From Salinimicrobium sp. (GTDB lineage: Archaea; Thermoplasmatota; Poseidoniia; Poseidoniales; Poseidoniaceae): a stretch of 64,000 nucleotides of DNA. This document shows, one piece after another, positions 12,575-57,939 of the stretch. The stretch covers positions 2,011 to 66,010 of the forward strand of contig CAXRAI010000058.1 in assembly GCA_964228865.1 (NCBI GenBank), written 5' to 3'. How positions within the stretch are numbered: the first letter of the stretch is position 1; each line of letters starts with the position of its first letter. The position numbers and the translations under genes are program-made. The notes beneath the pieces are model-generated. The model saw nothing but the letters and a program-made list of their open reading frames with translations. It was not told where the DNA came from and ran no database searches.

Positions 12575-12966
12575 GCGAGCGTGGCTTGGGGCGTGGTCTC
12601 GATCACTTGATCGAACAAAACGCCACCGAACTTGGCTTCCTCGACGCTTACGGGCCCACTCCAGAAGAGGCCCTTGGTGAGATCTTCGATGCGGCATGCC
12701 ATGCCCTCAACGCGCTCAATGGAACACGGACCGAGGATGCGTACGAAACAGAAACCCTCCTGCTCCAAAGGGAGGCCGATGGGACACGGCTCACATGGCG
12801 TGGCCAGCATTTGCCGCTGGTGGCCAGTGATTTGCGGCTGCCCGGTATGCGCGAAGGCATGCTTTCAGACGCTCGGGACATGGCCGAGGTGACCTTCGTG
12901 GATTGGACGCTGGACGTTCGTCGCTGCTTGGAGCGGGTCGTCGAACACCACTCAGGGCCGCCGTGA
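12571..12966 (+). CDS. 131-aa protein with a ParB/Spo0J-type N-terminal peptide (RGLGRGLDHLI) but no ParB/HTH domain
   Basis: Its ATG overlaps the parA stop (ATGA). The N-terminus MSERGLGRGLDHLIEQ mirrors bacterial ParB N-termini. The remainder has no GxRRxRA or HTH motifs. Confidence 0.55.
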   Translation: MSERGLGRGLDHLIEQNATELGFLDAYGPTPEEALGEIFDAACHALNALNGTRTEDAYETETLLLQREADGTRLTWRGQHLPLVASDLRLPGMREGMLSDARDMAEVTFVDWTLDVRRCLERVVEHHSGPP

Positions 12967-24748: not shown

Positions 24749-24845
24749 CACCTGCTCGTCGTGACGAGACCACTTGAAACCTTCAATCCAAGCGGTGCAC
24801 GCCAAGAACGAGCGTTCAAGTTCATCCGTGGTTGTCGTCCAACGG

Positions 24846-27800: not shown

Positions 27801-30800
27801 GAGGGAGGACCGTCGAGCACGACCTCTTCCGTACCGTTTGGTTTGGTGCTTGGCGTGGACGCCTCGGGCATGGCCCTGTCCCACCCTGCCGGGGCCAACA
27901 CGCTCACCCACCTCAGCAACGGTGCCAATCAGGTTCACGTCTTGGGCACGGCCTCGTGCCAACGGCACGTGGACGCTCCGTCGCCCTACGGTCACCGGTG
28001 CAGCACGACGCTGCGCGCGTGGTCCTCGACGGCGTTGATCCCCCTTGAATTCACGGCGTTGAGCCCTGTGAACGACCGCCGCATCGCCTTGAACCTGGAC
28101 GTTCTTGATGCTGCGTTGAACGAACGAAGGCAGAGCAGCACCGCTTCTGAACATCCCTTGGAAGTGTGGGTCGTCACCGATCACGGAGCCGTTGACGTCA
28201 CGTTCGACCTCGCCTCAAGGGCGAGGTTGCACGACGCTTTCCTGAGCCTCCCGAGCACAACGTGGACTCCAGGGACCAGCATCACGGTCGTCACCGAGCA
28301 CGAACGCACCGACGTTCGCGATGCGTCGGCCACCGTCCCCCCTATCGAATCGATCACGCTCGCCTTCGGTCCTTCTCCCTCCATGCCCCTTGGTGAGGTG
28401 ATTGTTGATCGGTTGGACGAAGGTCTTGCCCGGTTCAGGCAACCTTCTGGAGCAGGTTTGGCCGCGCTTCAAGGCACCAGCACCGCCTCGTGCGACGCCC
28501 GTTCCTGTGAGGTGTCATGGACCTTCATCTCATCATGGTCCTTTGACGACGTGCCGCAATTGCACTGGTGGACGGCGGCCACGGATGCGGATGGACTGCA
28601 GACTGGGCCGGCGGTCCAATCCATGAACGTCCAAGGCAACGACGTGGAGAACGACCTCGAAGTGATTTCGTTGGAGGTTTTCGATGACCGAGGCCGAGCC
28701 CTGCACGATTGGACCAAACCGTTGTGGCCGTTCGAAGTCAGTGCAGATCGGAACTTGGAGGTCCGCGGTCAGCTCAGGGTGGAAGGCGTCCAAGGCATCC
28801 ATCCAAGGGCTGGAGAAGCGTCCATCAGCCTTGAATTGCGGAACGGATCCTGGATGGACAGCGTTTTGGTCAACGTTCAGGACAATGGACGGTTCAACGG
28901 GACCCTCACCACGCCTTCTCCCGGCACCTTACCCAGCGGAGCACCACTGACCGTTGAGGCACGCATCATCCGGTTTGGTCCGGCGAACGCGCCATCGACC
29001 ACAAGCCAGCAGCGAGGCAACTCTCCCGTGGTGGATCTGGTCTACGACGACGTCCTCCCACAGTTCGTTGGTCTCGACGTCCTTGACCCCGGTGGACGAC
29101 AACCTGCCGATGGGCACGTGCTTCCGTCGGACTCGAACGTGGCCCTTGTGTTGAGCCTGAGCGACGATCAAGGCTTGGATGGGCCCGCCTATGTGTGGTC
29201 CTGGCTGGAATCGCGTGATGACGTGGACGACGACGGGGTCAGCGACCTCGAAGAATGGGTTCGGATGGTCGTTCCGCTGGCCGAAGGACGGAAGGAACAA
29301 TCCCTCGATCTGCCCTTGATTCAATCCTCCGACATCGTCCCAAACGGGGCGGACCTCGGGCTTGCTCGCTTCGTGGTTGAGGCATACGATGTCGCGGGCC
29401 ACGCCCTCCCAGGAGGAGGCGCGCTTGAGGGGCCATTTGCCGCAGAACTGCGGCTTGAGGCACGACGCCCCACCACCGTACCGACGTCTAGCCTGATGCT
29501 CGATACAGACCAAGGCCGTCTGTATCCCGGACATGTGCACACCTTCTCCACTGTGATTCAGGACGCCAACGGGCTGACCACGCTCGACGCCATCGAGGTG
29601 GCCTTGCTTGGCCAAAACGAGGATGCATGCCGGATTGTTTACGTTCCCAGAACTGGAGAAACCAAGCCCGATGTCGGCTGTTTCCTTGGTGCGCCTGAGG
29701 TCATGGTGCTTCCTCTGACGGGGGCCTCATGGCGGCTGGACATCGCCTTCAGGTTGCGTTGGGACATCGCCACGACCCACGCCGACGTGGACCACGTCCC
29801 CGCGCTGTTTGTGCGTGATGAGGGCCAAGACCTGGGTTTGGGATTCGGTCGCATCAGTGCGTTGACCTGGTGGACCAACGCCTCGGTTGATCTCCGCGTG
29901 GAGACCGTAAGCGACACAACCCCACCCTTCGGATCCTACGCGAATGGAGCCATCTATGCTCAGCGCGGTGATGTCATCAACGTCGGATTCCGCGTGGTCC
30001 ATTCCAACTCAAACCATACCGCAGAGCGTCTGCCCGGCACCGTCGGTCTCGATTGGTTCGTCACCGATGGAGCCCGGACCGACAGCGGTTCAATGGACGT
30101 GCCGAACGATGGGGAACCTACGCTACGAATTTCATTGGACCCGTCCCTCTTTGTCCGGACCTCAGGCCATCTCGAGGCTTCGCTCTCGGGATGGTCGGAA
30201 GGTGAACGCACGCAGCGCGTCTCGGTTCACATCGACGAGCATGAACCGCGTTTGTTGGTCACCGCCATCCAATTCATGCAGGTGAACAGCACTTCGCTCG
30301 ACGATGTTGCGCTGGAAGTGACCGTTCAAGACGTGGAACGTCCCGTGGAGGATGGGGTCGTGGCCCACTGGAGGATGCTCCGACAAGGCCGTGTGATGGA
30401 GGGTTCTTCGGGGTCGAGTCCTCTGACGCTTGATGCCTTGGCCGGAAGTTCCGCGGTCCATTCGGGCAGGGTCGATCTTCGGCCAGCGACCCTTGAGGTC
30501 ATGGAAGGTGACGTGTGGCAGGTTTGGTTCACCGCAACGGATGCTGCGGGACGAACAGCGGTTGGCGAGGGAAGCCCCAGCGAGCCGGTCACCGTCACCA
30601 TGCGCTGGATCGCCTACCAACCCGCACTTGTTTCCTTGGTGGCTGACCCCTTCCGCCCAACCCTTGGGGAGGTCGTGAACGTGGAATTCGAAGTGGCCAA
30701 CGGCGGCGTTCTTCCTGGGGCCACTTCGGTCCGGTTGATCGACGACAAGGGCATGACGTTGGCTGAACAGGACGTTTCACTGGCGCCAGGAGAACGTCAA

Positions 30801-31079
30801 CGCATCACGTGGAGCATAGAGGCATGGGCCATTGGCGACCTCGGACTTCGTCTTCAACTCGACAACGGAAGCGTGAGCGATGTTCCCGTGCCGTTGGCGG
30901 ACGTCAGCGCCGCCAGCGAAGGCGTAAGCGGCAGCAACGTTGGATGGACGAGCCTTGGAGCACTCGCTCTGATCCTTGCCGTGGCCAGCCTTGTGTTGGT
31001 GCGCGTTCAGGGCAGATCCAGAACCCTCGGAAAGCCCGTGGTGGAGCTTGAAGATTCGGCCTTTGATGAGGAAGAATGA
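24846..31079 (+). CDS. Giant (2077 aa) type-I membrane surface protein
   Basis: Signal peptide MEALQQRQRASFGMLLVLLLPLFLPVASA. Repeated beta-sandwich end motifs (GWLLDGLSV, GIAIDDLRA, GWYIDDAGVEI). CARDB-like module near the C-terminus. TM LGALALILAVASLVLV and an acidic tail. Confidence 0.8.
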   Translation: MEALQQRQRASFGMLLVLLLPLFLPVASAALGPVREVSSPTVTVAPLGGGGGITSANVTSLTVPANHTVIDAGLTVGTLWSDDGTNGTQFAHDVRTGFSGGLHDRTEGLLRGGRLTLASPASNNDVEDFEDPVLTPDGWLAIGSADRAWSTVNLSTVSLNTSLASSAYLGHRALLLGGPNATLDSQMAGCFVSPQVDGPRVVRNMTVRFRSSADLGPNDVRWVEWRSEATTTWSALTPSGGYPHQVSGSFPAGLVPNPQALSTAWVGDEGQGWTLHELPLDGHLGSAEAWYQLRFCFATTNDTAPRTGWLLDGLSVHNEGDPGGAWFHGNLSGAYAPDADGWVVLDTDLSGLSSPTELAFRAHWDMEGGWQDSMTTLLSLDHGASWTLLSQAPGLPGNGVLWQGGWLTQESGEWVDIEYSLPPGVFTSPNASSAQLAFRVITDANVGYGNAGVDGWEGIAIDDLRAVTYGGPGNTTVRMLDNFTTSPVLGQGVNLSQSNSTNEWVWTQAIGANGPTWWNASFESGRMVPRGWSIALERGQGWDVGILPNGTTAGPRAWPSGQQGAGIVLTGDYAAESLAYLTSPSYSLPDNSSARLSFRSWVCTETDWDGGAVQISVDDGASWWFPPYHSHTHHTLSRMNPYSPFYGEGIYDGSIHTGGCPTRSQAFDAETIDVSNLSGQEVRFRYVFFSDTWVEKDGWYIDDAGVEIDLFLDEGTWTSPSFSAPNQAMWGLLDGHARLPPGTNLTVDLLHPNGSIVPGWAGLTLPTHVTLSTSDVPVLKMRVNMSTTSSLATPILERLTLGSVTHLDAAHVASNAPSGLVIGQDGTMQNVAAQARVLTFPAWPACPHQQATVHVVGQGARPVAPSAAITSLGNASGVETFSVEWTALRLQSNLGVELPPATSLEEARAEVTCLHSASGVRVGLDAQAYEVFDVVSLGYGDVLGSSDALASFVNLSDGALLWEENSTVSGATVGANQSVEVQWYVEGGPSSTTSSVPFGLVLGVDASGMALSHPAGANTLTHLSNGANQVHVLGTASCQRHVDAPSPYGHRCSTTLRAWSSTALIPLEFTALSPVNDRRIALNLDVLDAALNERRQSSTASEHPLEVWVVTDHGAVDVTFDLASRARLHDAFLSLPSTTWTPGTSITVVTEHERTDVRDASATVPPIESITLAFGPSPSMPLGEVIVDRLDEGLARFRQPSGAGLAALQGTSTASCDARSCEVSWTFISSWSFDDVPQLHWWTAATDADGLQTGPAVQSMNVQGNDVENDLEVISLEVFDDRGRALHDWTKPLWPFEVSADRNLEVRGQLRVEGVQGIHPRAGEASISLELRNGSWMDSVLVNVQDNGRFNGTLTTPSPGTLPSGAPLTVEARIIRFGPANAPSTTSQQRGNSPVVDLVYDDVLPQFVGLDVLDPGGRQPADGHVLPSDSNVALVLSLSDDQGLDGPAYVWSWLESRDDVDDDGVSDLEEWVRMVVPLAEGRKEQSLDLPLIQSSDIVPNGADLGLARFVVEAYDVAGHALPGGGALEGPFAAELRLEARRPTTVPTSSLMLDTDQGRLYPGHVHTFSTVIQDANGLTTLDAIEVALLGQNEDACRIVYVPRTGETKPDVGCFLGAPEVMVLPLTGASWRLDIAFRLRWDIATTHADVDHVPALFVRDEGQDLGLGFGRISALTWWTNASVDLRVETVSDTTPPFGSYANGAIYAQRGDVINVGFRVVHSNSNHTAERLPGTVGLDWFVTDGARTDSGSMDVPNDGEPTLRISLDPSLFVRTSGHLEASLSGWSEGERTQRVSVHIDEHEPRLLVTAIQFMQVNSTSLDDVALEVTVQDVERPVEDGVVAHWRMLRQGRVMEGSSGSSPLTLDALAGSSAVHSGRVDLRPATLEVMEGDVWQVWFTATDAAGRTAVGEGSPSEPVTVTMRWIAYQPALVSLVADPFRPTLGEVVNVEFEVANGGVLPGATSVRLIDDKGMTLAEQDVSLAPGERQRITWSIEAWAIGDLGLRLQLDNGSVSDVPVPLADVSAASEGVSGSNVGWTSLGALALILAVASLVLVRVQGRSRTLGKPVVELEDSAFDEEE

Positions 31080-31109: not shown

Positions 31110-31193
31110 GACGGAGTTCCCGAGCGGTCAAAGGGGGTGGACTCAAGATCCTCTGCTAAGGCTTCGCAGGTTCGAATCCTGCCTCCGTCACCA
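31110..31193 (+). tRNA. tRNA-Leu (anticodon CAA), class II with a long variable arm, CCA encoded
   Basis: Acceptor GACGGAG/CTCCGTC, anticodon loop CTCAAGA, T-arm GCAGG-TTCGAAT-CCTGC, then A-CCA. One U-U mismatch in the anticodon stem. Confidence 0.8.
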
Positions 31194-31272
31194 CTCTCAC
31201 TGCCCAATCATGCTCCAACCGTGCCGAATCTGACGCCAAAACGTGGCCATAGAGGCGATGTAACAACGAAAG

Positions 31273-31356
31273 TGCGGGGAGCAGGATTCGAACCTGCGAA
31301 CCGTTGAGGACTGCGACCTGAACGCAGCGCCGTTGACCAAGCTGGGCGATCCCCGC
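31273..31356 (-). tRNA. tRNA-Leu (anticodon CAG), class II
   Basis: The minus strand reads GCGGGGA..CTGCG-TTCAGGT-CGCAG..GCAGG-TTCGAAT-CCTGC-TCCCCGC-A. All stems are perfect. Confidence 0.88.
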
Positions 31357-40388: not shown

Positions 40389-40652
40389 TCAGGACCACTT
40401 GACGGGCAGGTCTGCACGTAACTTGGCCAATTCCTCACCGGAATAGAGGGGTCGCCCTCCTTCCTTGACGGTGCTTTGAATGAGCCAAAGGACGCCGTTC
40501 CAAGCGCTACGCGATGCGGTGATTTCGACGTCACCCCGGGCGGCGACGTTCATGAGCTCGGCTTCAGCCGTGGTCGAATCAAAGAGGGCCTTGACGAGAT
40601 GACGGGTCTCGAAGGCCACCTGAGGTGGCTTCCAACTCATCATGGCGTTCAC
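40389..40652 (-). CDS. Small hypothetical protein (87 aa), translationally coupled to the upstream RHH gene
   Basis: Its GTG start overlaps the RHH gene stop (GTGA); alternative ATGs lie 6-9 nt downstream. No recognised motif and no PIN signature. Confidence 0.45.
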   Translation of the reverse strand: MNAMMSWKPPQVAFETRHLVKALFDSTTAEAELMNVAARGDVEITASRSAWNGVLWLIQSTVKEGGRPLYSGEELAKLRADLPVKWS

Positions 40653-40891
40653 ACCCTGAACGGAGCGAGGTTCAACCGCTCGACGAGGTGGTCGACATCG
40701 ACGTCAGCCGTGGCTTTGGCGCGTTCACGCAGCAGCTCGAGGCTACCGTCCATACGCGCCATGCGCTGGTGACGAATGAGGTCGAGCAGGACCTCATTCA
40801 CGCTCTTGTAACCGCCCAGCGAGCGCAAGGTGTTCAACTGTCTTCGTACTTCGTAGCTCACGCTCACCGAGGTCATTCCCTTCGCTGTCAT
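40649..40891 (-). CDS. Ribbon-helix-helix (CopG/VapB-antitoxin-like) small DNA-binding protein
   Basis: TSVSVSYEVRRQLNTLRSLGGYKSVNEVLLDLIRH fits a beta-strand-helix-helix pattern. 80 aa, immediately downstream of a parA homologue. Confidence 0.55.
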   Translation of the reverse strand: MTAKGMTSVSVSYEVRRQLNTLRSLGGYKSVNEVLLDLIRHQRMARMDGSLELLRERAKATADVDVDHLVERLNLAPFRV

Positions 40892-40920
40892 CGTGCATCC
40901 CGCTTGGTCGTGCCCTCTTT

Positions 40921-40938
40921 GCGCTACTTAAGGCGCGC
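40921..40938. promoter_or_regulatory. Imperfect 18-bp palindrome GCGCTACTTAAGGCGCGC in the parA-RHH intergenic spacer
   Basis: 14 of 18 positions are self-complementary around a CTTAAG centre. It lies 30-50 nt upstream of the RHH start, so it is a candidate operator or centromere-like site. Confidence 0.3.
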
Positions 40939-40981
40939 GTGAGCCGATTCCGCCGGAGTGCGATTTGTGGACCCTTTCCGT

Positions 40982-41944
40982 TTAGCGGCGCCCTTGTGCC
41001 TCAAGGGAGACCCTGGACGGGTCGCGGACACCAAATTCTCGTCGCATGTCCTGCACACGCCGATGGAATTCACGGGCCAAGGTCCAGTATTCGAGGGACC
41101 CCGCACCTGCTCCAGAGGAGGTCGGCTTGTTGAGCAACACCGTGGGTGCGCCCGACCAAGGAGCTTCTGCCACGTTCACCAGGCGCCGAATGGAAGTACT
41201 GAACAGCTTGTTCGGGATGCTCAGCGCCACCTGATCGCACACGTGGCGGGAAAGTTTCGAGCGCGCGTCCACCATGGTCATGACCACGCCGAAAATCTTC
41301 AGGTTCCGGTTGATTCGACGCTGAATCATCTTGACCGAGTTCATCAGCATGCTGAACCCTTCCAACGAGTAGTACTCCGCTTGGACGGGAACCATGACCC
41401 AGTTCGCAGCGCTGAGGGCGTTGATGGAGAGCAAGCCAAGGGAAGGTGGTGTGTCGATGATGATGTAATCAAAATGATCGATGATGGGAGCCAAGGCCTC
41501 TTTGAGGCGCGTTTCGCGACCGATCTTGTGCGACAATTCAATTTCAGCCCCAGAGAGGTGAATGTCGCTGGGCAACAACCAGAGGTTCTCGGTGGTCAAA
41601 GTCGCTGGAGGGCGGCCTTTCTCGTTGCGCAGCATCCACGCGTTGCGCATCGAAGCCGTAAGGTCCTCAGGGCCGATGAGGTACTCGTCCATCAGTGGGA
41701 GTTCTTCTCCGAGATCGTTGGTCAGAAGGTCGTAGGCCGTCTTCTTCACGCGCTTCTTTTCGATGCCGAATGAGGTGGCGCAGTTGCCTTGCGGATCCAA
41801 GTCGATGAGCAACACCTTCGCAGGAGGCAAGCCCATTTTTTGATGGCCACGTGCCAAGGCAGCGGCAAGGTTGACCGCCGTGGTCGTCTTTGCGCAGCCG
41901 CCCTTCTGGTTGGCGACAGCGATGACCATCTTGTACGGGTCCAT
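40982..41944 (-). CDS. ParA/MinD-superfamily ATPase (second copy, 320 aa, with insertions and a basic C-terminal tail)
   Basis: Deviant Walker A NQKGGCAKTTT, DLDPQGNCATSFG, IIDTPPSLG. Confidence 0.82.
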   Translation of the reverse strand: MDPYKMVIAVANQKGGCAKTTTAVNLAAALARGHQKMGLPPAKVLLIDLDPQGNCATSFGIEKKRVKKTAYDLLTNDLGEELPLMDEYLIGPEDLTASMRNAWMLRNEKGRPPATLTTENLWLLPSDIHLSGAEIELSHKIGRETRLKEALAPIIDHFDYIIIDTPPSLGLLSINALSAANWVMVPVQAEYYSLEGFSMLMNSVKMIQRRINRNLKIFGVVMTMVDARSKLSRHVCDQVALSIPNKLFSTSIRRLVNVAEAPWSGAPTVLLNKPTSSGAGAGSLEYWTLAREFHRRVQDMRREFGVRDPSRVSLEAQGRR

Positions 41945-47419: not shown

Positions 47420-48013
47420 TCACTCAAATTCAGAGGCGTCCATCTCGTTGAGCGCGATGTAAGAAGGCAACTGCATGGCACGTTCGAAGGTACGACCCAG
47501 CACCACCTCATCGAGTCGATCGCGTGTGCGGGCGATGGCCGTGAGCGGCAAGCGGATGGTTGGTCCAAGTTCGAAGCGTTGTTGGACGCCAATGCGCAAG
47601 GTGACGATGAAGCCCTTGTACGTCCGCTTGACCTTGAGCAATCCAGTGATGATGCCGACCTCATTGCCCTGGTTGTCGAGCACGGCGCGGTCAAGCATTT
47701 CATCGGGCGCGTAGAGTTGTTCGTCAATCCGGACCGTGTTCCGCCACCGGCGTTGCAGTTCACGCATGGACTTCGAAAGACGCACGGAGCCGTCGTCGTT
47801 GATGCTGTGCACCAATTCCTTGGGCAGCGGTGCATATTCGGCGGGTTTGCGCATGAATTCGCCCGCGACGTCCGTTTCGACCAGCATGCGCATGGATCGA
47901 ACACGGGACTCGTTTGGATGGTGGCGTTCACCGATGATGGTGCCCACCTTCGTGTCCTTCACGTATACGTCCCGTTGCATCAGCTCCTGAATGTGGTAGT
48001 CTGTTGGTGCCAT
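47420..48013 (-). CDS. Hypothetical protein, possibly with two PRC-barrel-like modules
   Basis: LMQRDVYVKDTKVGTIIG and MLDRAVLDNQGNEVGIITGLL resemble PRC-barrel N-terminal strands. Weak assignment. Confidence 0.45.
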   Translation of the reverse strand: MAPTDYHIQELMQRDVYVKDTKVGTIIGERHHPNESRVRSMRMLVETDVAGEFMRKPAEYAPLPKELVHSINDDGSVRLSKSMRELQRRWRNTVRIDEQLYAPDEMLDRAVLDNQGNEVGIITGLLKVKRTYKGFIVTLRIGVQQRFELGPTIRLPLTAIARTRDRLDEVVLGRTFERAMQLPSYIALNEMDASEFE

Positions 48014-48081
48014 GTTTTCCCTTCCCGTTGCACGGCCTGTGATGAGGGGGACACTTAATGTCTTCGACGGATAATGTAACT

Positions 48082-48330
48082 GTTCAATTGAGAATAGTCG
48101 TATTCTTGAGTAATTTCAATTGGAGATTCACGAAAATCGGCATGTCGCATAATCCATTCTGGTAACTGAATGCTGGCAGGATTCAATCTTGATTGGTGTC
48201 AAATTCCAATTGAAATCCCTCAAATATTCTGCGTCAGCACTGCCACGCCGACACGATCTGCCGCTCTGCCTGGCCGATGCCCTGGTGGAACGGGTGAATG
48301 CGCCAGAAAAAGAGCAATTTCCAATTGAAA
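48082..48330. repeat. Cluster of four TTYCAATTGRRA palindromic 12-mers in an AT-rich divergent intergenic region
   Basis: GTTCAATTGAGA 48082-48093, TTTCAATTGGAG 48114-48125, TTCCAATTGAAA 48204-48215, TTCCAATTGAAA 48319-48330. Confidence 0.7.
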
Positions 48331-48394
48331 CACGCCGGTATTCGCTCATGGTTGTGGCGGCGACCTCATTAGGGAAAAGCCACGACCTGCAAGC

Positions 48395-49081
48395 ATGGTG
48401 GCCATCGGTCTTGGTGGCTTGCACCCGAGGTTGGCCGCAACGGTCCTGCTTCACGCTGCGCGAAAAGGTCAGGCCGTATGTGGCGCCGTGCCGGCCGCAC
48501 GGCAACTGGCTCACGCCCGGGACCCCCTCGGTGCATCGTCTGTGGTCGAATCAAGCGAGGCCACGGTCCATCTTTTCGGTCCGGGCGACCACCACCGCTT
48601 GGCCCTGAGCCGCGGCGATCACGTGCTGACGGTGCTACCACTGGACGTTATTCCCACCCTTACTGCTGGGGTGTGGCCGGTCGTCCACCTGGACGACAAC
48701 GTTCGAGACGGATGGTGGGTCGCTGAACACGACGTCATTGACGCCATCTTACATCTGGCCCAGGTGCCGTTCTCAACCGGAACGGTGGTCATGAGCGGGC
48801 GCCGGCTTTGGCAAGCCTCTGAGCTGGTTCAAGAGGCCTCCATGCTTCATCGCCGTTGGTCGGCGGGCCTCGACGGGGCCTTTTCTGTCGACGTTCTTGC
48901 CGAACCACAACGGCCGCCCGTGCGCGTCCAAACGATCCTTTCAGGGGAATCGGAACCTGACCTTCGGCCGCTGCACGAGCTTCTTCTTGCTCAACGGGCC
49001 GAAGGCTGGCGTCCCCAAATGACCGTGAGGGAGGCCCTGATGCACCATTTGGCCTTGAACGAAGGGCTCAACCGTGCGTGA
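48395..49081 (+). CDS. Hypothetical protein (start and frame at the 5' end uncertain)
   Basis: 228-aa ORF with plausible composition from about residue 45 onward. An overlapping ORF (48189-48608) in another frame looks coding in its first ~60 codons. Confidence 0.4.
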   Translation: MVAIGLGGLHPRLAATVLLHAARKGQAVCGAVPAARQLAHARDPLGASSVVESSEATVHLFGPGDHHRLALSRGDHVLTVLPLDVIPTLTAGVWPVVHLDDNVRDGWWVAEHDVIDAILHLAQVPFSTGTVVMSGRRLWQASELVQEASMLHRRWSAGLDGAFSVDVLAEPQRPPVRVQTILSGESEPDLRPLHELLLAQRAEGWRPQMTVREALMHHLALNEGLNRA

Positions 49082-50100: not shown

Positions 50101-52404
50101 TCAATCAATCCCTGCTGCATCGAGCCGGTCGTTGATCAGCATCAAGCGATCGCGCAGCCGCGCAGCCTCTTCGAAATCGAGGGCCTTCGCGGCATCTTCC
50201 ATGGCGGACTTCACTTCTGAGGCCAGTTCTGCTAAGGCCTCTTGGTTGGAAGGAAGTTCATTGTCGGTTTCCAATTGAGAATCGTAATGTTCAATTGAAA
50301 TCCGCTGGTCATTGTCTGTCCCACCGTTCGCTGCCATAAACGTGGGTCCTGCACCTTCTGCGCGACCACCTCGGCGGGCCACCAAGCGCTTACCACCGCG
50401 ACCTGCAGCGGTGGTTCCTTCGACAAGACCCTCAGATTCTTGGCCCATCTGCGGAAGGGCCTTGACGATGGTTCTCGGCACGATGCCACGCCGCTGATTG
50501 TCCTGTTCTTGACGTTCGCGACGTTCCAGCGTTTGACGGATGGCCGCGGTCATCGAAGGCGACACGCTGTCTGCATACAGCAAGACTGAGCCGTTGGCGT
50601 TGCGGGCCGCACGGCCGATGGTTTGCAACAGGGAGCGTTCGTTGCGAAGGAAGCCTTGCCGGTCGGCGTCAAAGATGGCCACCAAACTGACCTCCGGGAT
50701 GTCGAGGCCCTCGCGGAGGAGGTTGATGCCGACGATGACGTCAATGAGTCCCAAACGAAGGGCATTGATGATCTCGGTTCGCTCGATGGTGTCGATTTCT
50801 GAGTGCAGGTGATGGGCCTTGACGCCCATGCGGCTGAGGTAGGCCGCGACTTCCTCTGCGAACTTGATGGTCAGCACGGTGACCAAGGTCCGTTCACCTC
50901 GCTCGATGCGGGCGTTGATTTCGGACAGCAAGTCGGCCACCTGGCCTTCCGTGGGACGGACTTCGATGCCTGGATCCAACAGCCCAGTCGGCCGAATTTC
51001 CATCCGAGGCAGGTGGTCGATGCTTTGCAGCATCTCGTACATCGAGGGCGAGCCCTGGATTTTCTTTGCCACATCGGCAGGGCCTGCTCCACCTTGCGAC
51101 GCGACGTGCAACAGGCCCTCGGGCACCGCCTGCCCCGTGACTTCACACAGATGACGCAGTTCCCGCTCCCCGGGGGTGGCCGAGACGTACACCATTTGCG
51201 GCACGAGGCTCTGGAATTCAGGGAGCTTCAGCGGCCGGTTGTCTGCAGCAGAAGGCAGACGGAAGCCATGTTCGATGAGGTTCTCCTTGCGTGCCCGGTC
51301 GCCGTGGTACATGCCACCGACCTGGGGCAAGGTCACGTGAGATTCGTCCATGATGACGAGGAAGCGGCTGGGGTCGCCGTGGAACTGCCGAGCACACGCC
51401 GCGAAGAAGTCCAGCAAGCAGTACGGTCGCTCTCCCGCATCACGGCCGTCGAAATGCCGTGAGTAGTTCTCAATCGCCAAGCAATGCCCCACTTCACGCA
51501 GCATTTCGAGGTCGTACTCGGTGCGTTGCTCCAGCCGGTGCCGCTTCACCACTTCATTTGTGCCGTCGAAGTGCTTCAGACGGCCGTTCAACTCGTTCTC
51601 GATGCGCTCGAGGGCGATTTCGAAGCGTTCCGGGCTGGTCATGAAGAATTCCTTCGGGTGAATCCAAGCTTCCTCCAACTCGTCAAGCACCTCCCAACTG
51701 ACCGGATCGCACACGGCCACGGCGACAACGCCGTCGAAATCGAAGCGGATGCGCAACGGGTCGTCGCGGCTCGGCATCCACACGTCCAACACTTCGCCGC
51801 GCAAGCGGGCTTGTCCTCGCTCAAGGTCCGTGTTGGTCCGCGCGTACTGCAGCCCGACCAGGGCCTTCATCAGATCCTGCGGCTCGATGGCCTGACCCAC
51901 GTGCACCCTGAGGTGGTGCTCAAGGAAGGTCTCGGGCGGGTTCAGCCCGTAAATGCACGAGACAGAGGACACGATGACGCAATCCGGCCGGGACACCAAA
52001 CTGGCCACGGCCGAGAAGCGCTCCTGCTCGATGCGCTCGTTGATGGAGAGTTCCTTGTCGATGTACAGGTCCCGCTTGGGCAGGTAGGCTTCAGGTTGGT
52101 AGTAGTCGTAATGCGACACGAAGTACTCCACGGCATTCTCCGGGAAGTAGCCCGCCAATTCGTGGTGCAACTGTCGCGCGAGCGTTTTGTTGTGCGACAT
52201 GATCAGCGTGGGAAGGTTCAGCCGCTCGATGACGTTCGCCATGGCGAAGGTCTTGCCTGACCCCGTCACACCAAGCAGCACGCACCGTTCTTGACCACCC
52301 TCAATTTGCTGGACCAGGTGCTCGATGGCTTCCGGCTGATCACCGGCGGGAGCATGTTCCGAATGCAGCACAAAGCGGCTGACCTCCGGGCGGAGGTGCT
52401 CCAT
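50101..52404 (-). CDS. uvrB: Excinuclease ABC subunit B
   Basis: FVLHSEHAPAGDQPEAI, GVTGSGKTF, QTIGRAARN, C-terminal UVR motif AKALDFEEAARLRDRL. An alternative start at 52524 would add a 40-aa acidic extension. Confidence 0.93.
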   Translation of the reverse strand: MEHLRPEVSRFVLHSEHAPAGDQPEAIEHLVQQIEGGQERCVLLGVTGSGKTFAMANVIERLNLPTLIMSHNKTLARQLHHELAGYFPENAVEYFVSHYDYYQPEAYLPKRDLYIDKELSINERIEQERFSAVASLVSRPDCVIVSSVSCIYGLNPPETFLEHHLRVHVGQAIEPQDLMKALVGLQYARTNTDLERGQARLRGEVLDVWMPSRDDPLRIRFDFDGVVAVAVCDPVSWEVLDELEEAWIHPKEFFMTSPERFEIALERIENELNGRLKHFDGTNEVVKRHRLEQRTEYDLEMLREVGHCLAIENYSRHFDGRDAGERPYCLLDFFAACARQFHGDPSRFLVIMDESHVTLPQVGGMYHGDRARKENLIEHGFRLPSAADNRPLKLPEFQSLVPQMVYVSATPGERELRHLCEVTGQAVPEGLLHVASQGGAGPADVAKKIQGSPSMYEMLQSIDHLPRMEIRPTGLLDPGIEVRPTEGQVADLLSEINARIERGERTLVTVLTIKFAEEVAAYLSRMGVKAHHLHSEIDTIERTEIINALRLGLIDVIVGINLLREGLDIPEVSLVAIFDADRQGFLRNERSLLQTIGRAARNANGSVLLYADSVSPSMTAAIRQTLERRERQEQDNQRRGIVPRTIVKALPQMGQESEGLVEGTTAAGRGGKRLVARRGGRAEGAGPTFMAANGGTDNDQRISIEHYDSQLETDNELPSNQEALAELASEVKSAMEDAAKALDFEEAARLRDRLMLINDRLDAAGID
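50269..50300. repeat. Pair of TTYCAATTGRRA 12-mers 20 bp apart inside the uvrB linker
   Basis: TTCCAATTGAGA 50269-50280 and GTTCAATTGAAA 50289-50300, bracketed by the 8-bp direct repeat TCATTGTC (50258-50265, 50309-50316). Confidence 0.7.
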
Positions 52405-52565
52405 GGAGGCCCCCTCGAGGGCACGGGACAAGTCGAAGGGGTCCCGCTCCTGCAGGTCCACCTCGCCCACGTCGAGGTTGGCACGGGCCTCGAAGGACCC
52501 GTCATCGTCCCAGTCATCGACCACGAATCAGGGCGGTCGGGCGCCGGTTTGAACCCTTGTGGGAC

Positions 52566-54639: not shown

Positions 54640-56601
54640 TCAGGCCCCTCCGTTCGGGAAACGAAGGTGTGGAGGCCATGAATAGTCCGCCAATTCTGGG
54701 TGGGATGCGACCTTTTCCAAGGTCTCCGGGCTGTGCAGCGTCACGGCAGGCCAACGGCGCACGCCATGCGACTCAGAGGGGATGGGTGTCGTGGCGTCCC
54801 AACACAACCGTGCCTTTCCTTCGTCGAAGGTCAGGCCTCGGCCCACGTCGAAACGGCAAAACAGCTGCCAAAGCATGCGACGGCGAGCCTTTGGCCCGTG
54901 CAGGTCGAGATCATCATCGGTGATGATGAGCCAGCGCAAATCCTTGGCTTCTTTCAATTGCCAAATTTGATTTTTCAATTGAAGAATCTTTTCTTGACGG
55001 GCCGCCTCAAGCGCATCGCCTTCTGGCGTCACTTCCGATCCCGTGCGGGGTGAGGGCCTGCCTTCGATGGCCACGCTGACCACCAGCATGCTGTTGCGCA
55101 GCAGCCGCGCATCCTCAGCACCATCGAGGGCCAACACGGACGACAGATCGTCCCCAGCCCATCCAGGGGCTTCGGCCCCGCCACGTCGCCACTCAGGAGT
55201 CGCTTGCTTGAATGAGCCCAGCAGAGGTGCTTCTCCAGAGCGTGGATCCGTCGACGGAATGGACGTCGCATCGATGATGACCTTGTCGTGGACGTTTTCG
55301 TACGGGCTTGCTGCTTCAAGCGCGTCTGCGACCATGCCTTCGAGGACAATGACGTCCTCGGCGGGATCGACCTTGTCGTTGAGGTCATCGAGGAATCCCT
55401 CGAGGTCCTTCGGGTCGCGGTCAGGGTCGACGACGACCATCGACTTCAGGAACATCATTTGTCCAGCGCCCATCAGGCCGATGGCCGTCTTCCGACCCTG
55501 GCGAGGGTACCGTTGCTTTGAGGCGACGATGGCGAGGTTGTGGAAGCCGGTCTCCAACGGGAGATGCACGCTGACCACGTCACGGTGCTGGAAGCGAAGG
55601 ACGGGGCTGAACTGACGCCCAATGGCCTCGCCGAGGAAGCCGTCCTCCATGGGCGGGAGCCCCACGATGGTCGCCGGCAACATCGCGTCGGCACGGCGGG
55701 TCACGGCGGTGACGTTTAGCACGGGGTAGTGGCCGGTCAGGGAGTAGAAGCCGTAGTGGTCACCGAAGGGTCCTTCGACGCGCAGATCGGTCGGGTCGGT
55801 CCACCCCTCGATGACGATGTCCGCTTCTGCAGGGATCCACAGGTCCTGCGTGGCGGCTTTGGTCAGAGGGAGGCGTCGGCGACCGAGGATACCTGCGAAT
55901 TGGTACTCCGACAGGTTATCGGGAAGCGGGGAAATCGCTGAGAAAATCAGCTCAGGCGGACCTCCAAGGCAGATCGCTACCGGCATCTTCAGCCCGGCTG
56001 CGGCGTGGTCTGCGCCGTGCTTGTGCACTTGCCAATGCAAGCCTGCTTCTTTCGGTCCAAAGATTTGCGAGCGGTACATGCCAAGGTTGTGTTCGCCTGA
56101 GGCCAGGTCACGGGTGACCACCAGCGGGAGCGTGATGTAGGCTCCTCCGTCCATCGGCCATGTCGTTGGAATGGGGAGTTTGGTCAGGTCAGGGTCGGTG
56201 TCGACGATGCGCTGAACGCGGCCACGGCGCTTTCGCTTCGGGGCGAACGCCAGCGCGTCCATGGCCAGCGGTAGGGCTTCCCAAGGTCGCTTGAGGTACC
56301 GCGGCACGTCCGGCTTCATCATGGCAACCATGCGGTCGCCGATGGCCGTCTCGGTCTCAACGCCCAGAGCGCGCAAGGTCCTGTCCTCGCTTCCAAAGAG
56401 GTTCATCACCAGCGGAACCTCGCTGATGCTGCCGTCCGCAAGGCGGGGTTGCTCAAAGATCACGGCAGGGCCGTCGTTCTTCACAAGCAGGTCGGCGATG
56501 GCGCCGGCTTCGTGAACGACGTCAACGGGACGGGGGATGCGCAACACCTCACCGCGCTGCTCAAGGTGGTCCACCCACCGCTTGAGCGTCCTCCATGCCA
56601 T
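54640..56601 (-). CDS. ubiD: UbiD-family (prenyl-FMN-dependent) decarboxylase with an extended C-terminus
   Basis: N-terminus WRTLKRWVDHLEQRGEVLRI, YRSQIFGPKE...HW and a VVVDPDRD-type segment. 653 aa from MAWRTLK. Confidence 0.82.
   Translation of the reverse strand: MAWRTLKRWVDHLEQRGEVLRIPRPVDVVHEAGAIADLLVKNDGPAVIFEQPRLADGSISEVPLVMNLFGSEDRTLRALGVETETAIGDRMVAMMKPDVPRYLKRPWEALPLAMDALAFAPKRKRRGRVQRIVDTDPDLTKLPIPTTWPMDGGAYITLPLVVTRDLASGEHNLGMYRSQIFGPKEAGLHWQVHKHGADHAAAGLKMPVAICLGGPPELIFSAISPLPDNLSEYQFAGILGRRRLPLTKAATQDLWIPAEADIVIEGWTDPTDLRVEGPFGDHYGFYSLTGHYPVLNVTAVTRRADAMLPATIVGLPPMEDGFLGEAIGRQFSPVLRFQHRDVVSVHLPLETGFHNLAIVASKQRYPRQGRKTAIGLMGAGQMMFLKSMVVVDPDRDPKDLEGFLDDLNDKVDPAEDVIVLEGMVADALEAASPYENVHDKVIIDATSIPSTDPRSGEAPLLGSFKQATPEWRRGGAEAPGWAGDDLSSVLALDGAEDARLLRNSMLVVSVAIEGRPSPRTGSEVTPEGDALEAARQEKILQLKNQIWQLKEAKDLRWLIITDDDLDLHGPKARRRMLWQLFCRFDVGRGLTFDEGKARLCWDATTPIPSESHGVRRWPAVTLHSPETLEKVASHPELADYSWPPHLRFPNGGA
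54952..54984. repeat. Pair of TTTCAATTG-type 12-mers 21 bp apart inside ubiD
   Basis: TTTCAATTGCCA 54952-54963 and TTTCAATTGAAG 54973-54984, within a local AT-rich patch. Confidence 0.6.
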
Positions 56602-56670
56602 GTGTTGCTGTCTACGGTTTTGCCTTTGGACCTTCGCCGAGGCCCACGCCATGGAGCAGACGCACCATTG

Positions 56671-57939
56671 ATGGACTCCGTGGGCTCACCATGCAGCATG
56701 GCAGCGGAGCCGGAGGTCGACGTTGACCTCGTGGTCATTGGTGCTGGCCCGGGAGGAGGTTCAGCTGCCTTGCATGCCTCGAGGCTCGGCCTCTCTGTGA
56801 TGGTCCTTGAGGCCGACCCAGAAATTGGAACCCCCGTACATTGCGGCGAGTGCTTGTCGCACCTCGCCACCGAACAACTCGAACTCGATCTTCCCGACCA
56901 CGTCATCGCCTTGGCCGTGGATGGAGTGCGCGTGATTTTCCCTGACGGCACGGCGAAATTGTTGACCGAACCGGGGTACGTGCTGGAGAAGCACCTGTTT
57001 GAGCGGTGGATCATGGAGCAGGCCGAGGAACGCGGTGCAGGCATTTACCTCGGCCATCGCGTGACCAAAATGGAACGTGAATTCAATAGCGAAAATCAAT
57101 TTTCCAATTGGAGTCTCGATGGAAGAGGCGACGCTTTCCCCATCCGATGCCGTGGCGTCATCGATGCTTCAGGCGTGCATGGAGCGGCTTCGAAGATCCT
57201 TGGAATGCCCGGTGAGGTGGAGGTCATCGCGGGCTTTCAGTACGAGCTGAACGACGTGCCGAACGACGGCTACCTGGACTTTTACATCCAGCCTGAATAC
57301 GCTCCTCACGGCTATGTGTGGATGATTCCAAAGGCGGGTGAACGCGCCAACGTTGGGTTGGTCACCACCGACAAAAAGGGGGCGGTCAAGTACCTCGACC
57401 AATTCATTGACGACACCTACCTCAAAGGGAAACCACACGTGAATCCTCCTTGGCGCAAGGAGGGCATCAAGGTCAGACCTTTCGGCGGGACCATTCCCAT
57501 CTCGGGACCCAGGGCAAGCACGGTGGAAGACGGATTGCTGCTGGTCGGTGACGCAGCAGGATTCACGTCTCCGCTCTTCGAAGGAGGCACACACCTTGCG
57601 TTGTGGTCGGGTCGCGCAGCGGCTGAAACCTTTGCAGAAGCCATCGCAGCAGGTTTGCCGACCAAAGACCGTCTGTCGGGCTATCAGCGCAGATGGAAAG
57701 GTGCCTTCCCTCCTTACCACAAGATCTTGCGAGGGAAAACGGCCCTGTACGATTTGAGCGACGATGAAATGTCGGCGATGGCCAGGTGCTTGCCTGAGGA
57801 ACTCGGGTCGATGTCACCGCTGCAAAAGCTTGGCATTGGCATGAAGATCCTCGTGCGTCGCCCCGCGCTGTTGACCAAGCGCGTGATTTCTGTGCTTCTT
57901 TCGTTTGGCTATTCACGGGCCAAACACTTCGGTTGGTGA
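56671..57939 (+). CDS. Geranylgeranyl reductase-family FAD-dependent oxidoreductase
   Basis: DLVVIGAGPGGGSAA (GxGxxG) and LLVGDAAGFTSPLFEGG. Alternative start at 56698. Confidence 0.85.
   Translation: MDSVGSPCSMAAEPEVDVDLVVIGAGPGGGSAALHASRLGLSVMVLEADPEIGTPVHCGECLSHLATEQLELDLPDHVIALAVDGVRVIFPDGTAKLLTEPGYVLEKHLFERWIMEQAEERGAGIYLGHRVTKMEREFNSENQFSNWSLDGRGDAFPIRCRGVIDASGVHGAASKILGMPGEVEVIAGFQYELNDVPNDGYLDFYIQPEYAPHGYVWMIPKAGERANVGLVTTDKKGAVKYLDQFIDDTYLKGKPHVNPPWRKEGIKVRPFGGTIPISGPRASTVEDGLLLVGDAAGFTSPLFEGGTHLALWSGRAAAETFAEAIAAGLPTKDRLSGYQRRWKGAFPPYHKILRGKTALYDLSDDEMSAMARCLPEELGSMSPLQKLGIGMKILVRRPALLTKRVISVLLSFGYSRAKHFGW
57102..57113. repeat. Single TTCCAATTGGAG 12-mer inside the reductase gene
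   Basis: The bottom strand reads CTCCAATTGGAA. It is embedded in an AT-rich patch (GAAAATCAATTTTCCAATTGGAG). Confidence 0.5.

What the first reader, a model, noticed from the sequence alone, without database searches (positions are those of the whole stretch)
50258..50316. In-frame 17-codon AT-rich unit inside uvrB with two copies of the same palindrome, bracketed by an exact 8-bp direct repeat
The patch lies in the poorly conserved linker between the UvrB helicase core and the C-terminal UVR hairpin. It holds TTCCAATTGAGA (50269-50280) and GTTCAATTGAAA (50289-50300), 20 bp apart. CAATTGAGAAT is shared with the 48082 copy, and the 12-nt CAATTGAAATCC with the 48204 copy. The patch is bracketed by TCATTGTC at 50258-50265 and 50309-50316. 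These repeats are exactly 51 bp (17 codons) apart, so the protein reads TDND-QRISIEHYDSQLE-TDNE. One reading is a small in-frame insertion with a target-site-like duplication, analogous in principle to Rickettsia palindromic elements. The other is a protein-binding DNA site maintained in a tolerant linker, as many bacterial parS sites are intragenic.
Basis: seen in the sequence. Interest (0 to 1): 0.62.

Follow-up and report, generated by a model that had tools for sequence, protein, structure and literature searches.

The report
Conserved palindromic DNA element inside uvrB
The AT-rich patch in this marine archaeon's uvrB gene is one copy of a previously undescribed 26-base palindromic DNA element that occurs tens of times per genome throughout the order Poseidoniales and is preserved at the DNA level even where it forces the protein sequence, so it is most likely a binding site for an unknown protein and not an inserted mobile element.

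Summary
The window comes from a Poseidoniaceae (Marine Group IIa) archaeon, and uvrB is 50101-52524 on the minus strand.

The two CAATTG boxes (50272-77 and 50292-97, 20 bp apart) are not chance. In 81 uvrB orthologues with 70-100% amino-acid identity, they hold the only invariant synonymous positions in the gene. The amino acids change (S/P/A, E/G, Q/E/K) while the bases stay fixed.

There is no indel in any orthologue. The bracketing 8-bp repeat occurs in this sequence only and is a chance match. The insertion reading with a target-site duplication is therefore rejected.

The pair is one copy of an element found across the order, CAATTG-RAAAW-TYRA-WTTTY-CAATTG. Other copies lie at gene junctions, next to tRNA-Leu, in frame in uvrB's N-terminus, in a phosphopantetheinyl transferase and in ubiD, clustered upstream of a PRC-barrel-like gene, and in putative viruses.

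The element shows no arm covariation, no flanking duplications and no sense-strand terminator bias.

The best reading is a site for a sequence-specific double-stranded-DNA-binding protein that has not been identified. A hairpin role like that of REP elements is the main rival.

The parts
50272..50297 (.). Copy 'D' of the 26-bp palindromic element. The CAATTG boxes are at 50272-50277 and 50292-50297 with a 14-bp spacer. On the coding (minus) strand it reads TCA ATT GAA CAT TAC GAT TCT CAA TTG, that is S-I-E-H-Y-D-S-Q-L. The central block is degraded in this genome (TACG instead of the TYRA consensus).
   Evidence: NCA, ATT, CAA and TTG are fixed in 71-79 of 81 orthologues. All four choices together are seen in 62, against 1.5 expected from codon usage.
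50101..52524 (-). uvrB (807 aa), the host gene. The element lies 171-196 nt upstream of the stop codon, in the linker before the UVR domain.
50258..50265 (.). Left copy of the 8-bp direct repeat TCATTGTC. It is a chance match and not part of the element.
50309..50316 (.). Right copy of the 8-bp direct repeat TCATTGTC. It is a chance match and not part of the element.
54955..54981 (.). Copy 'B', with CAATTG boxes 21 bp apart (54955-60 and 54976-81). It is in frame in the roughly 200-aa C-terminal extension of the UbiD-family gene 54640-56652 (minus strand) and reads L-Q-L-K-N-Q-I-W-Q-L-K.
   Evidence: In the loci that hold ubiD, the pair is kept at the orthologous place in about 14 and a single box in about 9.
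57105..57110 (.). Single box 'A' (TTCCAATTGGAG, 57102-57113) inside the FAD-dependent reductase-like gene on the plus strand. A CAATTG box sits at the orthologous position in roughly 20 of the related loci that reach that far, across several genera.
48085..48122 (.). Proximal boxes of cluster 'E' (48085-90 and 48117-22, 32 bp apart). They lie 72-109 bp upstream of the ATG of the PRC-barrel-like gene 47420-48013 (minus strand). A box pair with 32-33 bp spacing recurs at this place in other Poseidoniaceae genera (one box degenerate in some).
48207..48212 (.). Third box of cluster 'E' (TTCCAATTGAAA, 48204-48215).
48322..48327 (.). Fourth box of cluster 'E' (TTCCAATTGAAA, 48319-48330), about 65 bp upstream of the ATG of the divergent gene orf228 (48395-49081, plus strand).
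48014..48394 (.). Divergent intergenic region that holds cluster 'E'. It also carries a second conserved repeat, ATTATGCGACA (48142-48153 on the minus strand).

Best explanation
The patch is one copy of a 26-bp palindromic element, CAATTG-RAAAW-TYRA-WTTTY-CAATTG, found across the order Poseidoniales.

Shown here:
- The element is dispersed at roughly tens of copies per genome in both families, MGIIa and MGIIb.
- The uvrB copy has been held by purifying selection on the DNA itself throughout the Poseidoniaceae. The bases are fixed while the encoded residues vary.
- Copies arise and decay in place by point substitution, not by insertion.

Inferred:
- The element is the recognition site of a sequence-specific double-stranded-DNA-binding protein.
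- The protein probably binds as a dimer of dimers, or otherwise as a multimer, along one face of the helix. It would contact the two CAATTG boxes two helical turns apart and the central TYRA block one turn from each. The A- and T-tracts may help by bending the DNA.
- Because these genomes have almost no spacer DNA, sites that must sit at a given chromosomal place are written into tolerant coding segments such as the uvrB linker. There the reading frame nCA-ATT-GAA ... CAA-TTG yields the peptide [S/P/A]-I-[E/G]-x-S-x-x-Q-L.

Not determined: what the bound protein does. It could be a global regulator of the Lrp/AsnC kind, a roadblock or looping factor, or a nucleoid-organising factor of the MatP/Noc/SlmA kind.
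For: - In the codon alignment of 81 orthologues, the first box is always NCA-ATT-GNA although the residues are S, P or A and E or G. The second box is NAA-TTG (Q, E or K, then L).
- Among 814 third-codon positions, and leaving aside Met and Trp codons, the only two with zero entropy are in the two boxes. The next best columns include I744 ATT (79/81) and L751 TTG (78/81).
- Under a codon-usage null, 1.5 of 81 orthologues are expected to make all four synonymous choices; 62 do. In genomes with GC3 above 0.6, 0.17 of 27 are expected and 22 are observed.
- The neighbouring conserved peptide TYDEPDD varies freely at its third positions.
- The spacer is also constrained, for example Ser is TCR in 78 of 80. 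In the position table the unconstrained centre has T at position 12 in 91% and A at position 15 in 95% of copies.
- Consecutive CAATTG boxes in 1.77 Mb of Poseidoniales DNA are spaced 20 bp apart 239 times, 21 bp 35 times, 27 bp 16 times and 32-33 bp 39 times. Every other spacing up to 70 bp occurs at most 6 times.
About 70 of the 80 rows displayed are Poseidoniales or MGII MAGs, although the order is a very small part of the species scanned.
- There is no covariation between the arms. Positions 7/20 form Watson-Crick pairs 117 times against 128 expected under independence, and positions 13/14 72 times against 100.
- Flanking direct repeats are no more common than in controls.
- Copies occur at co-directional (40), convergent (11) and divergent (9) junctions and inside ORFs (48).
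- The same frame and peptide recur in uvrB site C (AIEKLISQLEN), in a phosphopantetheinyl transferase (..SIENSxFQLE..) and in uvrB site D.
- Sites turn over within the uvrB linker: a displaced pair with 21-bp spacing in L212, L243 and L253, a half-decayed copy in L270 and none in L309.
- A cluster of 4 boxes lies in a divergent promoter region that is conserved across genera.
Against: - No binding protein was identified. orf228, next to the densest cluster, gave a medium-confidence model with no fold match, and no family search named a candidate.
- The element can form a stable RNA or DNA hairpin: -12.2 kcal/mol with z = -5.1 for the consensus, and -12.8 kcal/mol with z = -3.1 for the window's sense strand.
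- Many copies sit 0-9 nt after a stop codon or fill the spacer between convergent genes. That is where terminators and REP-like elements sit.
- About half of the collected copies were found with a pattern that fixes RAAA and TTTY, so the conservation seen at those spacer positions is partly circular.
- The orthologues are phylogenetically related, so the counts are not independent events.
- No transcript or occupancy data could be obtained. Only assembled contigs were available.
Confidence: 0.58

Rival explanations
1. A hairpin element acting on RNA, or as a DNA cruciform, comparable to REP/BIME. The palindrome would fold in transcripts and act as a bidirectional terminator, a 3'-end stabiliser or a processing site. 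The coding copies would be tolerated passengers or attenuators.
For: - Hairpins are stable.
- 57 of about 150 flank measurements place a stop codon of an ORF of at least 80 aa within 9 nt of the element or overlapping its end. 11 copies are the whole spacer between convergent genes. 9 copies abut the 3' CCA of tRNA-Leu(CAA).
- The element carries T-runs on both strands.
Against: - The arms do not covary, and mismatches at positions 7/20 are not compensated.
- The specific bases, not the pairing potential, are conserved across all copies.
- In 36 copies that follow a stop codon on one side only, the sense-strand T-run is shorter than the antisense one (mean 4.0 against 4.6; shorter in 21, longer in 9). 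That is the opposite of a sense terminator.
- Copies sit between a stop codon and the Shine-Dalgarno sequence and ATG of the next gene in apparent operons, and twice inside uvrB including near its 5' end. Termination there would be harmful.
- Single boxes and arrays with 32-33 bp spacing are also conserved.
Confidence: 0.2
2. The boxes are mini-ORB-like sites for Orc1/Cdc6, and the uvrB, ubiD and intergenic clusters mark a replication origin or an Orc1-type regulon. Alternatively they are parS-like centromere sites for a partition protein.
For: - TTCCAATTGAAAT matches the invariant TTCC-N4-GAA core of Pyrococcus mini-ORBs, for example TTCCAGTGGAACT.
- Pyrococcus has a conserved intragenic ORB cluster in dp1 that Cdc6 binds (PMC1904270).
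- The core resembles parS TTTCAC|GTGAAA (from my own knowledge).
- Two ParA-like ATPases are encoded in the window.
- Within the window the boxes are concentrated in 48-57 kb around a long AT-rich intergenic region.
Against: - No orc1/cdc6 gene and no canonical ParB gene were found among the window ORFs tested.
- Copies are dispersed over many unrelated loci, one of them about 80 kb from uvrB on the same contig.
- Many copies read TTTC rather than TTCC.
- The cumulative GC skew shows no turn at 48 kb.
- The unit is a 26-bp palindrome with a conserved centre, unlike ORB or parS.
Confidence: 0.1
3. A small mobile palindromic element inserted in frame (RPE-like or MITE-like), with TCATTGTC as the target-site duplication.
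For: - The element is multi-copy, palindromic and AT-rich in a GC-rich genome.
- It occurs in frame in several genes.
- Presence and absence differ between lineages at several loci, such as uvrB site C and the tRNA-Leu flank.
Against: - There is no indel in any orthologue.
- The flanking repeat is present in 1 of 81 sequences and is statistically ordinary.
- 113 copies show no flanking duplications.
- uvrB site C lies in a helicase motif of unchanged length. The comparison with E. coli AIRRLEEGLEDG is from my own knowledge.
- Orthologous copies are kept across saturated synonymous divergence.
Confidence: 0.04
4. The constraint is on the protein or on translation. The peptide S-I-E-N-S-N-S-Q-L would be a functional linear motif of UvrB, or the rare AT-rich codons would be a programmed pause between domains.
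For: - A related peptide (S-V-x-S-N-I-S-Q-P) is present in lineages that lack the DNA element.
- The patch lies at a domain boundary.
- The codons are rare in this 62% GC genome.
Against: - Residues vary (S/P/A, E/G, Q/E/K) while the bases are fixed.
- The same codons are kept in 40% GC genomes, where they are not rare.
- The identical 26-bp string recurs in non-coding DNA and in unrelated proteins.
Confidence: 0.03

Closest known systems
Chromosome-wide palindromic protein sites that are often intragenic: matS/MatP, NBS/Noc, SBS/SlmA and parS/ParB in bacteria
   Same: These are short palindromes present at tens of copies per chromosome. Many lie inside genes and are conserved at the DNA level. 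They are read by a dimeric DNA-binding protein and are independent of local transcription direction (from my own knowledge of these systems).
   Different: This element is archaeal. It is a composite 26-bp unit with two boxes and a conserved centre. No cognate protein is known, and the distribution along the chromosome was not mapped. The sequence differs; against parS the central CG is AT.
Intragenic mini-ORB/ORB cluster in the dp1 gene of Thermococcales, bound by Cdc6/Orc1 (PMC1904270)
   Same: An archaeal precedent for protein-binding repeats that are conserved inside a coding gene. Both share the TTCC-N4-GAA core.
   Different: The Pyrococcus clusters lie within 5 kb of oriC and cdc6. Here no orc1 gene is nearby, and copies are dispersed genome-wide as exact 20-bp pairs.
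REP/BIME elements of enterobacteria and pseudomonads
   Same: Imperfect palindromes of roughly 30 bp at gene 3' ends and between convergent genes, in many copies, with a family-specific sequence.
   Different: REPs are extragenic, are spread by RAYT transposases and are poorly conserved at orthologous sites across genera. This element also sits in frame in genes, shows purifying selection across a family and shows no arm covariation.
Rickettsia palindromic elements (RPE)
   Same: A palindromic repeat found in frame inside protein-coding genes, in tolerant parts of the proteins.
   Different: RPEs are 100-150 bp insertions seen as indels between orthologues. Here the unit is 26 bp, there is no indel and no duplication, and at least one copy was built by substitution inside a conserved motif.
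DNA uptake sequences (DUS/USS) of Neisseria and Pasteurellaceae
   Same: A short DNA motif selected for its own sake. It occurs as inverted pairs near gene ends and also inside genes in preferred frames and tolerant positions, shaping peptides, with a reported bias towards genome-maintenance genes (from my own knowledge).
   Different: DUS and USS occur at about 1 per kb, are not palindromes and serve natural transformation. Nothing here points to DNA uptake.

Membership tests
Rickettsia-type palindromic element or MITE (in-frame insertion) | Presence or absence appears as an indel between orthologues. | tested here: not met
   All 80 orthologues, and MGIIb-type UvrB, have a segment of the same length.
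Rickettsia-type palindromic element or MITE (in-frame insertion) | A target-site duplication flanks the copies. | tested here: not met
   The 8-bp repeat is present in 1 of 81 sequences. Flanking repeats at 113 copies are no more frequent than in controls.
Rickettsia-type palindromic element or MITE (in-frame insertion) | Multiple dispersed copies, some of them in frame in genes. | tested here: met
REP/BIME-like extragenic palindrome | Extragenic location at 3' ends and between convergent genes. | tested here: inconclusive
   Many copies hug stop codons. However, 48 of 113 lie inside stop-to-stop ORFs. Several of these sit at the very start of the ORF and are probably upstream of the true start codon. 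The uvrB and phosphopantetheinyl-transferase copies are clearly within coding sequence.
REP/BIME-like extragenic palindrome | The stem is maintained, so the arms covary. | tested here: not met
   Watson-Crick pairs at variable positions are at or below the number expected under independence.
REP/BIME-like extragenic palindrome | An associated RAYT (IS200/IS605-type) transposase. | not testable with these tools
   Whole genomes could not be scanned. None was seen in the window ORFs tested.
parS/ParB centromere | A 16-bp palindrome TGTTNCACGTGAAACA. | tested here: not met
   The core is TTTCAATTGAAA, with central AT instead of CG, and the unit is 26 bp.
parS/ParB centromere | A ParB (HTH) protein is encoded, and the sites cluster near the origin. 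| tested here: not met
   Only ParA-like ATPases with small partners of unknown family were found. Copies are dispersed.
ORB / mini-ORB (Orc1/Cdc6 site) | A TTCC-N4-GAA core. | tested here: inconclusive
   The core is met by TTCCAATTGAAA copies, but many copies read TTTC or GTTC.
ORB / mini-ORB (Orc1/Cdc6 site) | Clustered at an origin next to orc1/cdc6. | tested here: not met
   No Orc1 or Cdc6 domain was found in the window ORFs tested. Copies are dispersed.
ORB / mini-ORB (Orc1/Cdc6 site) | Bound by Orc1/Cdc6. | not testable with these tools
   This needs EMSA or ChIP.
Operator or architectural site of a sequence-specific dsDNA-binding protein | A palindromic consensus with positions specified independently, and fixed helical phasing between boxes. 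| tested here: met
   Spacings of 20/21 and 32/33 bp dominate.
Operator or architectural site of a sequence-specific dsDNA-binding protein | Purifying selection on the DNA at orthologous sites, with site turnover. | tested here: met
Operator or architectural site of a sequence-specific dsDNA-binding protein | A cognate protein binds it. | not testable with these tools
   No candidate was identified.
Archaeal oligo-T intrinsic terminator | A sense-strand T-run just downstream of the stop codon. | tested here: not met
   In 36 copies that follow a stop codon on one side only, the sense T-run is shorter than the antisense one in 21 and longer in 9. Copies also lie inside operons and genes.

The most novel reading that the evidence does not exclude
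Poseidoniales, among the most abundant planktonic archaea of the surface ocean, carry a lineage-specific system of 26-bp palindromic sites at tens of copies per chromosome. An as-yet-unknown DNA-binding protein, either a global regulator or a nucleoid-organising factor, would read these sites. Its demand for sites at fixed chromosomal places would be strong enough to dictate amino-acid sequence in housekeeping proteins: UvrB twice, a phosphopantetheinyl transferase and UbiD. Viruses of these archaea would also carry a copy in their replication module.
Probability: 0.5. Interest if true: 0.78.

Novelty: new variant of a known kind. Interest (0 to 1): 0.68.

Why it matters
No member of the Poseidoniales has been cultured, and I found no described cis-element for the order. 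Full-text searches found nothing on this motif.

A defined 26-bp element with clear DNA-level selection gives a concrete handle. The oligonucleotide can be used to fish out its binding protein from expressed metagenomic genes. The sites can be mapped on long MAG contigs to ask about chromosome organisation or a regulon. The element may also serve as a lineage marker: contigs carrying it turned up in MAGs labelled as bacteria.

It is also a clean natural example of a non-coding signal overriding protein-coding choices. This matters for anyone who reads conserved linker peptides as protein motifs.

Tried and rejected
- Rfam at gathering thresholds found only tRNAs in the window.
- Pfam and NCBIfam on the neighbours of the densest cluster (47420-48013 and orf228) and on the small partners of the two ParA-like genes found nothing.
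- The AlphaFold2 model of orf228 (pLDDT 71) had no PDB fold match at E <= 0.001. It is therefore not usable as a candidate binder.
- Searches for sequencing runs gave only assembled contigs. Laying them on 47.2-52.6 kb showed no informative transcript ends.
- An internal promoter for dhs was considered. The element is kept in lineages where a different gene follows uvrB, and no TATA-like sequence lies between it and the dhs ATG.
- Upstream regions of 20 window genes showed no recognisable promoter consensus to compare with.
- An origin of replication at 48.0-48.4 kb was considered because the region is AT-rich, repeat-rich and unusually long in relatives. No orc1 gene is nearby and the skew does not turn there. 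This remains open but unsupported.
- A restriction-modification explanation (CAATTG is the MunI/MfeI site) was considered. CAATTG is not depleted outside the elements.
Full report
**What is there.** The window is about 62% GC. Its uvrB gene lies at 50101-52524 on the minus strand. Every string and coordinate in the finding is correct. On the coding strand the patch reads ACA GAC AAT GAC CAG CGG ATT TCA ATT GAA CAT TAC GAT TCT CAA TTG GAA ACC GAC AAT GAA. One CAATTG therefore comes from S-I-E (TCA ATT GAA). The other comes from Q-L (CAA TTG), 20 bp away and in a different codon phase. The patch has about the lowest GC3 of any 24-codon window in the gene: 0.375 against 0.75.

**Which part is more than chance.** CAATTG alone is not enriched in the window. 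The 12-mer TTYCAATTGARA is enriched: 25 matches with up to 2 mismatches against 10 expected, with 0 of 100 shuffles reaching 25. It clusters in three places:
- 48082-48330, intergenic, four boxes
- 50269-50300, in uvrB
- 54952-54984, a second pair 21 bp apart, inside a UbiD-family gene

The bracketing TCATTGTC repeat is ordinary. The window has 200 such 8-mer repeats at offsets of 20-80 bp, and uvrB alone has six such loci. In the alignment of 81 orthologues only the window has both copies; its 96%-identical relatives read GACAACGA in the first copy.

**Orthologues.** A scan of one genome per species returned 80 loci from Poseidoniales, Marine Group II. Their UvrB proteins are 70-96% identical to the window's, and gene order is conserved: ubiD, ubiA, SDR, uvrB, dhs, orf228 on the opposite strand, an intergenic region, a PRC-barrel-like gene, then prs. 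None of them has an indel at the 17 codons. Representatives at 60-65% identity, which are MGIIb-type, have a segment of equal length reading ..V-L-S-N-L-S-Q-P... This removes the insertion reading.

**The constraint is on the DNA.** In the codon alignment the first box is always NCA ATT GNA. The residue before Ile is Ser, Pro or Ala, and the residue after it is Glu or Gly. The second box is NAA TTG with Gln, Glu or Lys. Non-synonymous first positions change while third positions are frozen.
- Over all 814 third-codon columns of the gene, and leaving aside Met and Trp, the only two with zero entropy are these two. ATT (79/81), TTG (78/81) and GNA (74/81) rank close behind.
- From each genome's own codon usage, 1.5 of 81 sequences should make all four synonymous choices; 62 do. 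In the 27 genomes with GC3 above 0.6, the expectation is 0.17 and 22 are observed.
- The adjacent conserved peptide TYDEPDD shows freely varying third positions. Synonymous sites are therefore saturated at this depth, and shared ancestry alone does not explain the frozen boxes.

**A much larger family.** The related loci showed further conserved pairs:
- near the uvrB N-terminus, about 2.04 kb from the linker pair, present in most lineages but lost in the window's clade
- in the C-terminal extension of ubiD
- a single box in the reductase-like gene upstream of ubiD
- the cluster upstream of the PRC-barrel-like gene

A scan of all 185,579 species genomes for CAATTGAAAAN{10,11}CAATTG gave about 18 Poseidoniales loci among the 120 returned. 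In 1.77 Mb of Poseidoniales DNA, consecutive CAATTG boxes are 20 bp apart 239 times, 21 bp 35 times, 27 bp 16 times and 32-33 bp 39 times; no other spacing up to 70 bp occurs more than 6 times.

The consensus is a 26-bp palindrome, CAATTG-RAAAW-TYRA-WTTTY-CAATTG. The symmetry usually stops at the 26-bp edge (78 of 113 copies). In the flanks of loci found by the pattern, further pairs occur about once per 44 kb, which implies some tens of copies per genome. CAATTG boxes outside the conserved clusters show no flank signal.

**Where copies sit.** Of 113 perfect copies:
- 48 lie inside stop-to-stop ORFs
- 40 lie at co-directional junctions
- 11 lie at convergent junctions, where the element is essentially the whole spacer
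- 9 lie at divergent junctions

Recurrent orthologous places:
- directly after the CCA end of tRNA-Leu(CAA)
- between a stop codon and the Shine-Dalgarno sequence and ATG of the next gene
- 162 nt before the stop of a 4'-phosphopantetheinyl transferase, where the element reads [S/P/A]-I-[E/G]-N-x-x-F-Q-L
- the uvrB N-terminal motif A-I-E-K-L-I-S-Q-L-E-N

That last motif has the same length as E. coli AIRRLEEGLEDG (my own knowledge of the E. coli sequence), so this copy was written by substitutions into a conserved helicase motif. In the third reading frame CAATTGA gives a TGA stop, which explains why coding copies use only two frames.

Within the uvrB linker the site turns over. One MGIIa lineage has a pair with 21-bp spacing eight codons further on (Q-P-I-E-E..F-S-I-E-E). 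One MGIIb genome has a half-decayed copy at the original place. Another has none. The window's own copy has intact boxes but a degraded centre, TACG.

**Mechanism.** What is shown is selection on the DNA string, fixed helical phasing, origin in place and dispersal across the order. What is inferred is that a protein reads the duplex.

Against a hairpin:
- The variable positions of the two arms do not covary. Positions 7/20 form 117 Watson-Crick pairs against 128 expected, and positions 13/14 form 72 against 100.
- In copies that follow a stop codon on one side only, the sense-strand T-run is shorter than the antisense one, in 21 cases against 9.
- Copies lie within operons and genes.

For a hairpin:
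- The fold is stable.
- The element prefers stop-proximal positions.

I put the protein-site reading at about 0.6 and the hairpin or REP-like reading at about 0.2. ORB-like and parS-like identities are attractive by sequence: the TTCC-N4-GAA core, and the Pyrococcus dp1 precedent. They fail on context, because no orc1 or parB gene was found and the copies are dispersed. I could not name the binding protein. orf228 gave no fold match.

**Viruses.** Twelve IMG/VR contigs carry a perfect copy. Eight of them have it at one orthologous position, right after the stop of a gene resembling the primase large subunit, beside a DNA methylase gene and an ERCC4-HhH nuclease gene. This fits viruses of these archaea using a host factor or host signal. 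It does not discriminate between the models.

**Novelty.** Full-text searches found nothing on this motif or on cis-elements of Poseidoniales. The general kind, dispersed palindromic sites that are sometimes intragenic, is known from bacteria and from Thermococcales origins. This particular element, its lineage and the degree to which it dictates protein sequence appear to be new.

**Verdict.** The insertion reading with a target-site duplication is rejected. The reading as a binding site in a tolerant linker is supported and greatly extended.

Noticed in passing
window 11582-12966: A ParA-like ATPase (11582-12574) is followed by a 140-aa ORF (12544-12966) with no family hit. Its N-terminus, RGLGRGLDHLI, resembles the ParA-stimulating N-terminal peptide of ParB.
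   Followed up: partly
window 40649-41944: A second ParA-like ATPase (40982-41944, minus strand) is followed by an 80-aa ORF (40649-40891) that looks like a ribbon-helix-helix protein. This may be a SegAB-like or ParA/ParG-like pair. No Pfam or NCBIfam hit was found.
   Followed up: partly
window 48014-48394 and related loci (upstream of the PRC-barrel-like gene): A second conserved repeat, ATTATGCGACA (window 48142-48153 on the minus strand, with a degenerate copy at 48064-48075), occurs twice in most relatives, each time followed by a CAATTG box. A TATA-like sequence (tataag) and a conserved leader (..taagccgaaca..ggagagatggg ATG) follow. The intergenic region reaches about 0.8-1 kb in some genera, which is unusual for these compact genomes.
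   Followed up: partly
window 47420-48013 (minus strand): This is a highly conserved 197-aa protein, at least 68% identical among the 120 closest database homologues listed. JGI names 87%-identical homologues 'YlmC with PRC-barrel domain', but Pfam and NCBIfam found nothing here. It lies directly downstream of the densest cluster of boxes.
   Followed up: partly
window 48395-49081 (plus strand): orf228 has homologues only down to 55% identity, none with a Pfam domain or an informative name. The AlphaFold2 model has a mean pLDDT of 71 and no PDB fold match.
   Followed up: yes
window 52250-52330 (uvrB codons ~66-80) against L025-L080: The N-terminal uvrB copy of the element (AIEKLISQLEN) is present in most Poseidoniales, including an MGIIb genome. 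It is lost in the window's clade, which reads AIEHLVQQIEGG, with no change in length.
   Followed up: yes
window 31110-31356: The tRNA-Leu(CAA) and tRNA-Leu(CAG) genes are convergent, 78 bp apart. In at least nine other Poseidoniales genomes the 26-bp element abuts the CCA end of tRNA-Leu(CAA). Here it is absent. ARAGORN calls both tRNAs, but Rfam at gathering thresholds reports only the first.
   Followed up: partly
window 54640-56652 (minus strand): The UbiD-family decarboxylase carries a C-terminal extension of about 200 aa (residues 463-670) with no domain hit. The second in-frame copy of the element sits in this extension.
   Followed up: partly
L327 4889-4914, L328 4459-4484 and ten other IMG/VR contigs: Putative viral contigs of 2-101 kb carry a perfect copy of the element. 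Eight have it at one orthologous spot after a gene resembling the primase large subunit, next to an N6/N4 DNA methylase gene and an ERCC4-HhH nuclease gene.
   Followed up: partly
L015, L211 and L030: Contigs with typical Poseidoniales gene order and the element belong to MAGs labelled Rhodobiaceae (ERR599054_bin.37) and Opitutia (ARS1007). This is probably mis-binning or mislabelling.
   Followed up: no
window 5263-6342 (minus strand) and 24774-31079 (plus strand): The first ORF is a XerC/D-type tyrosine recombinase (Phage_integrase domain). The second is a 2101-aa ORF that was not examined.
   Followed up: no
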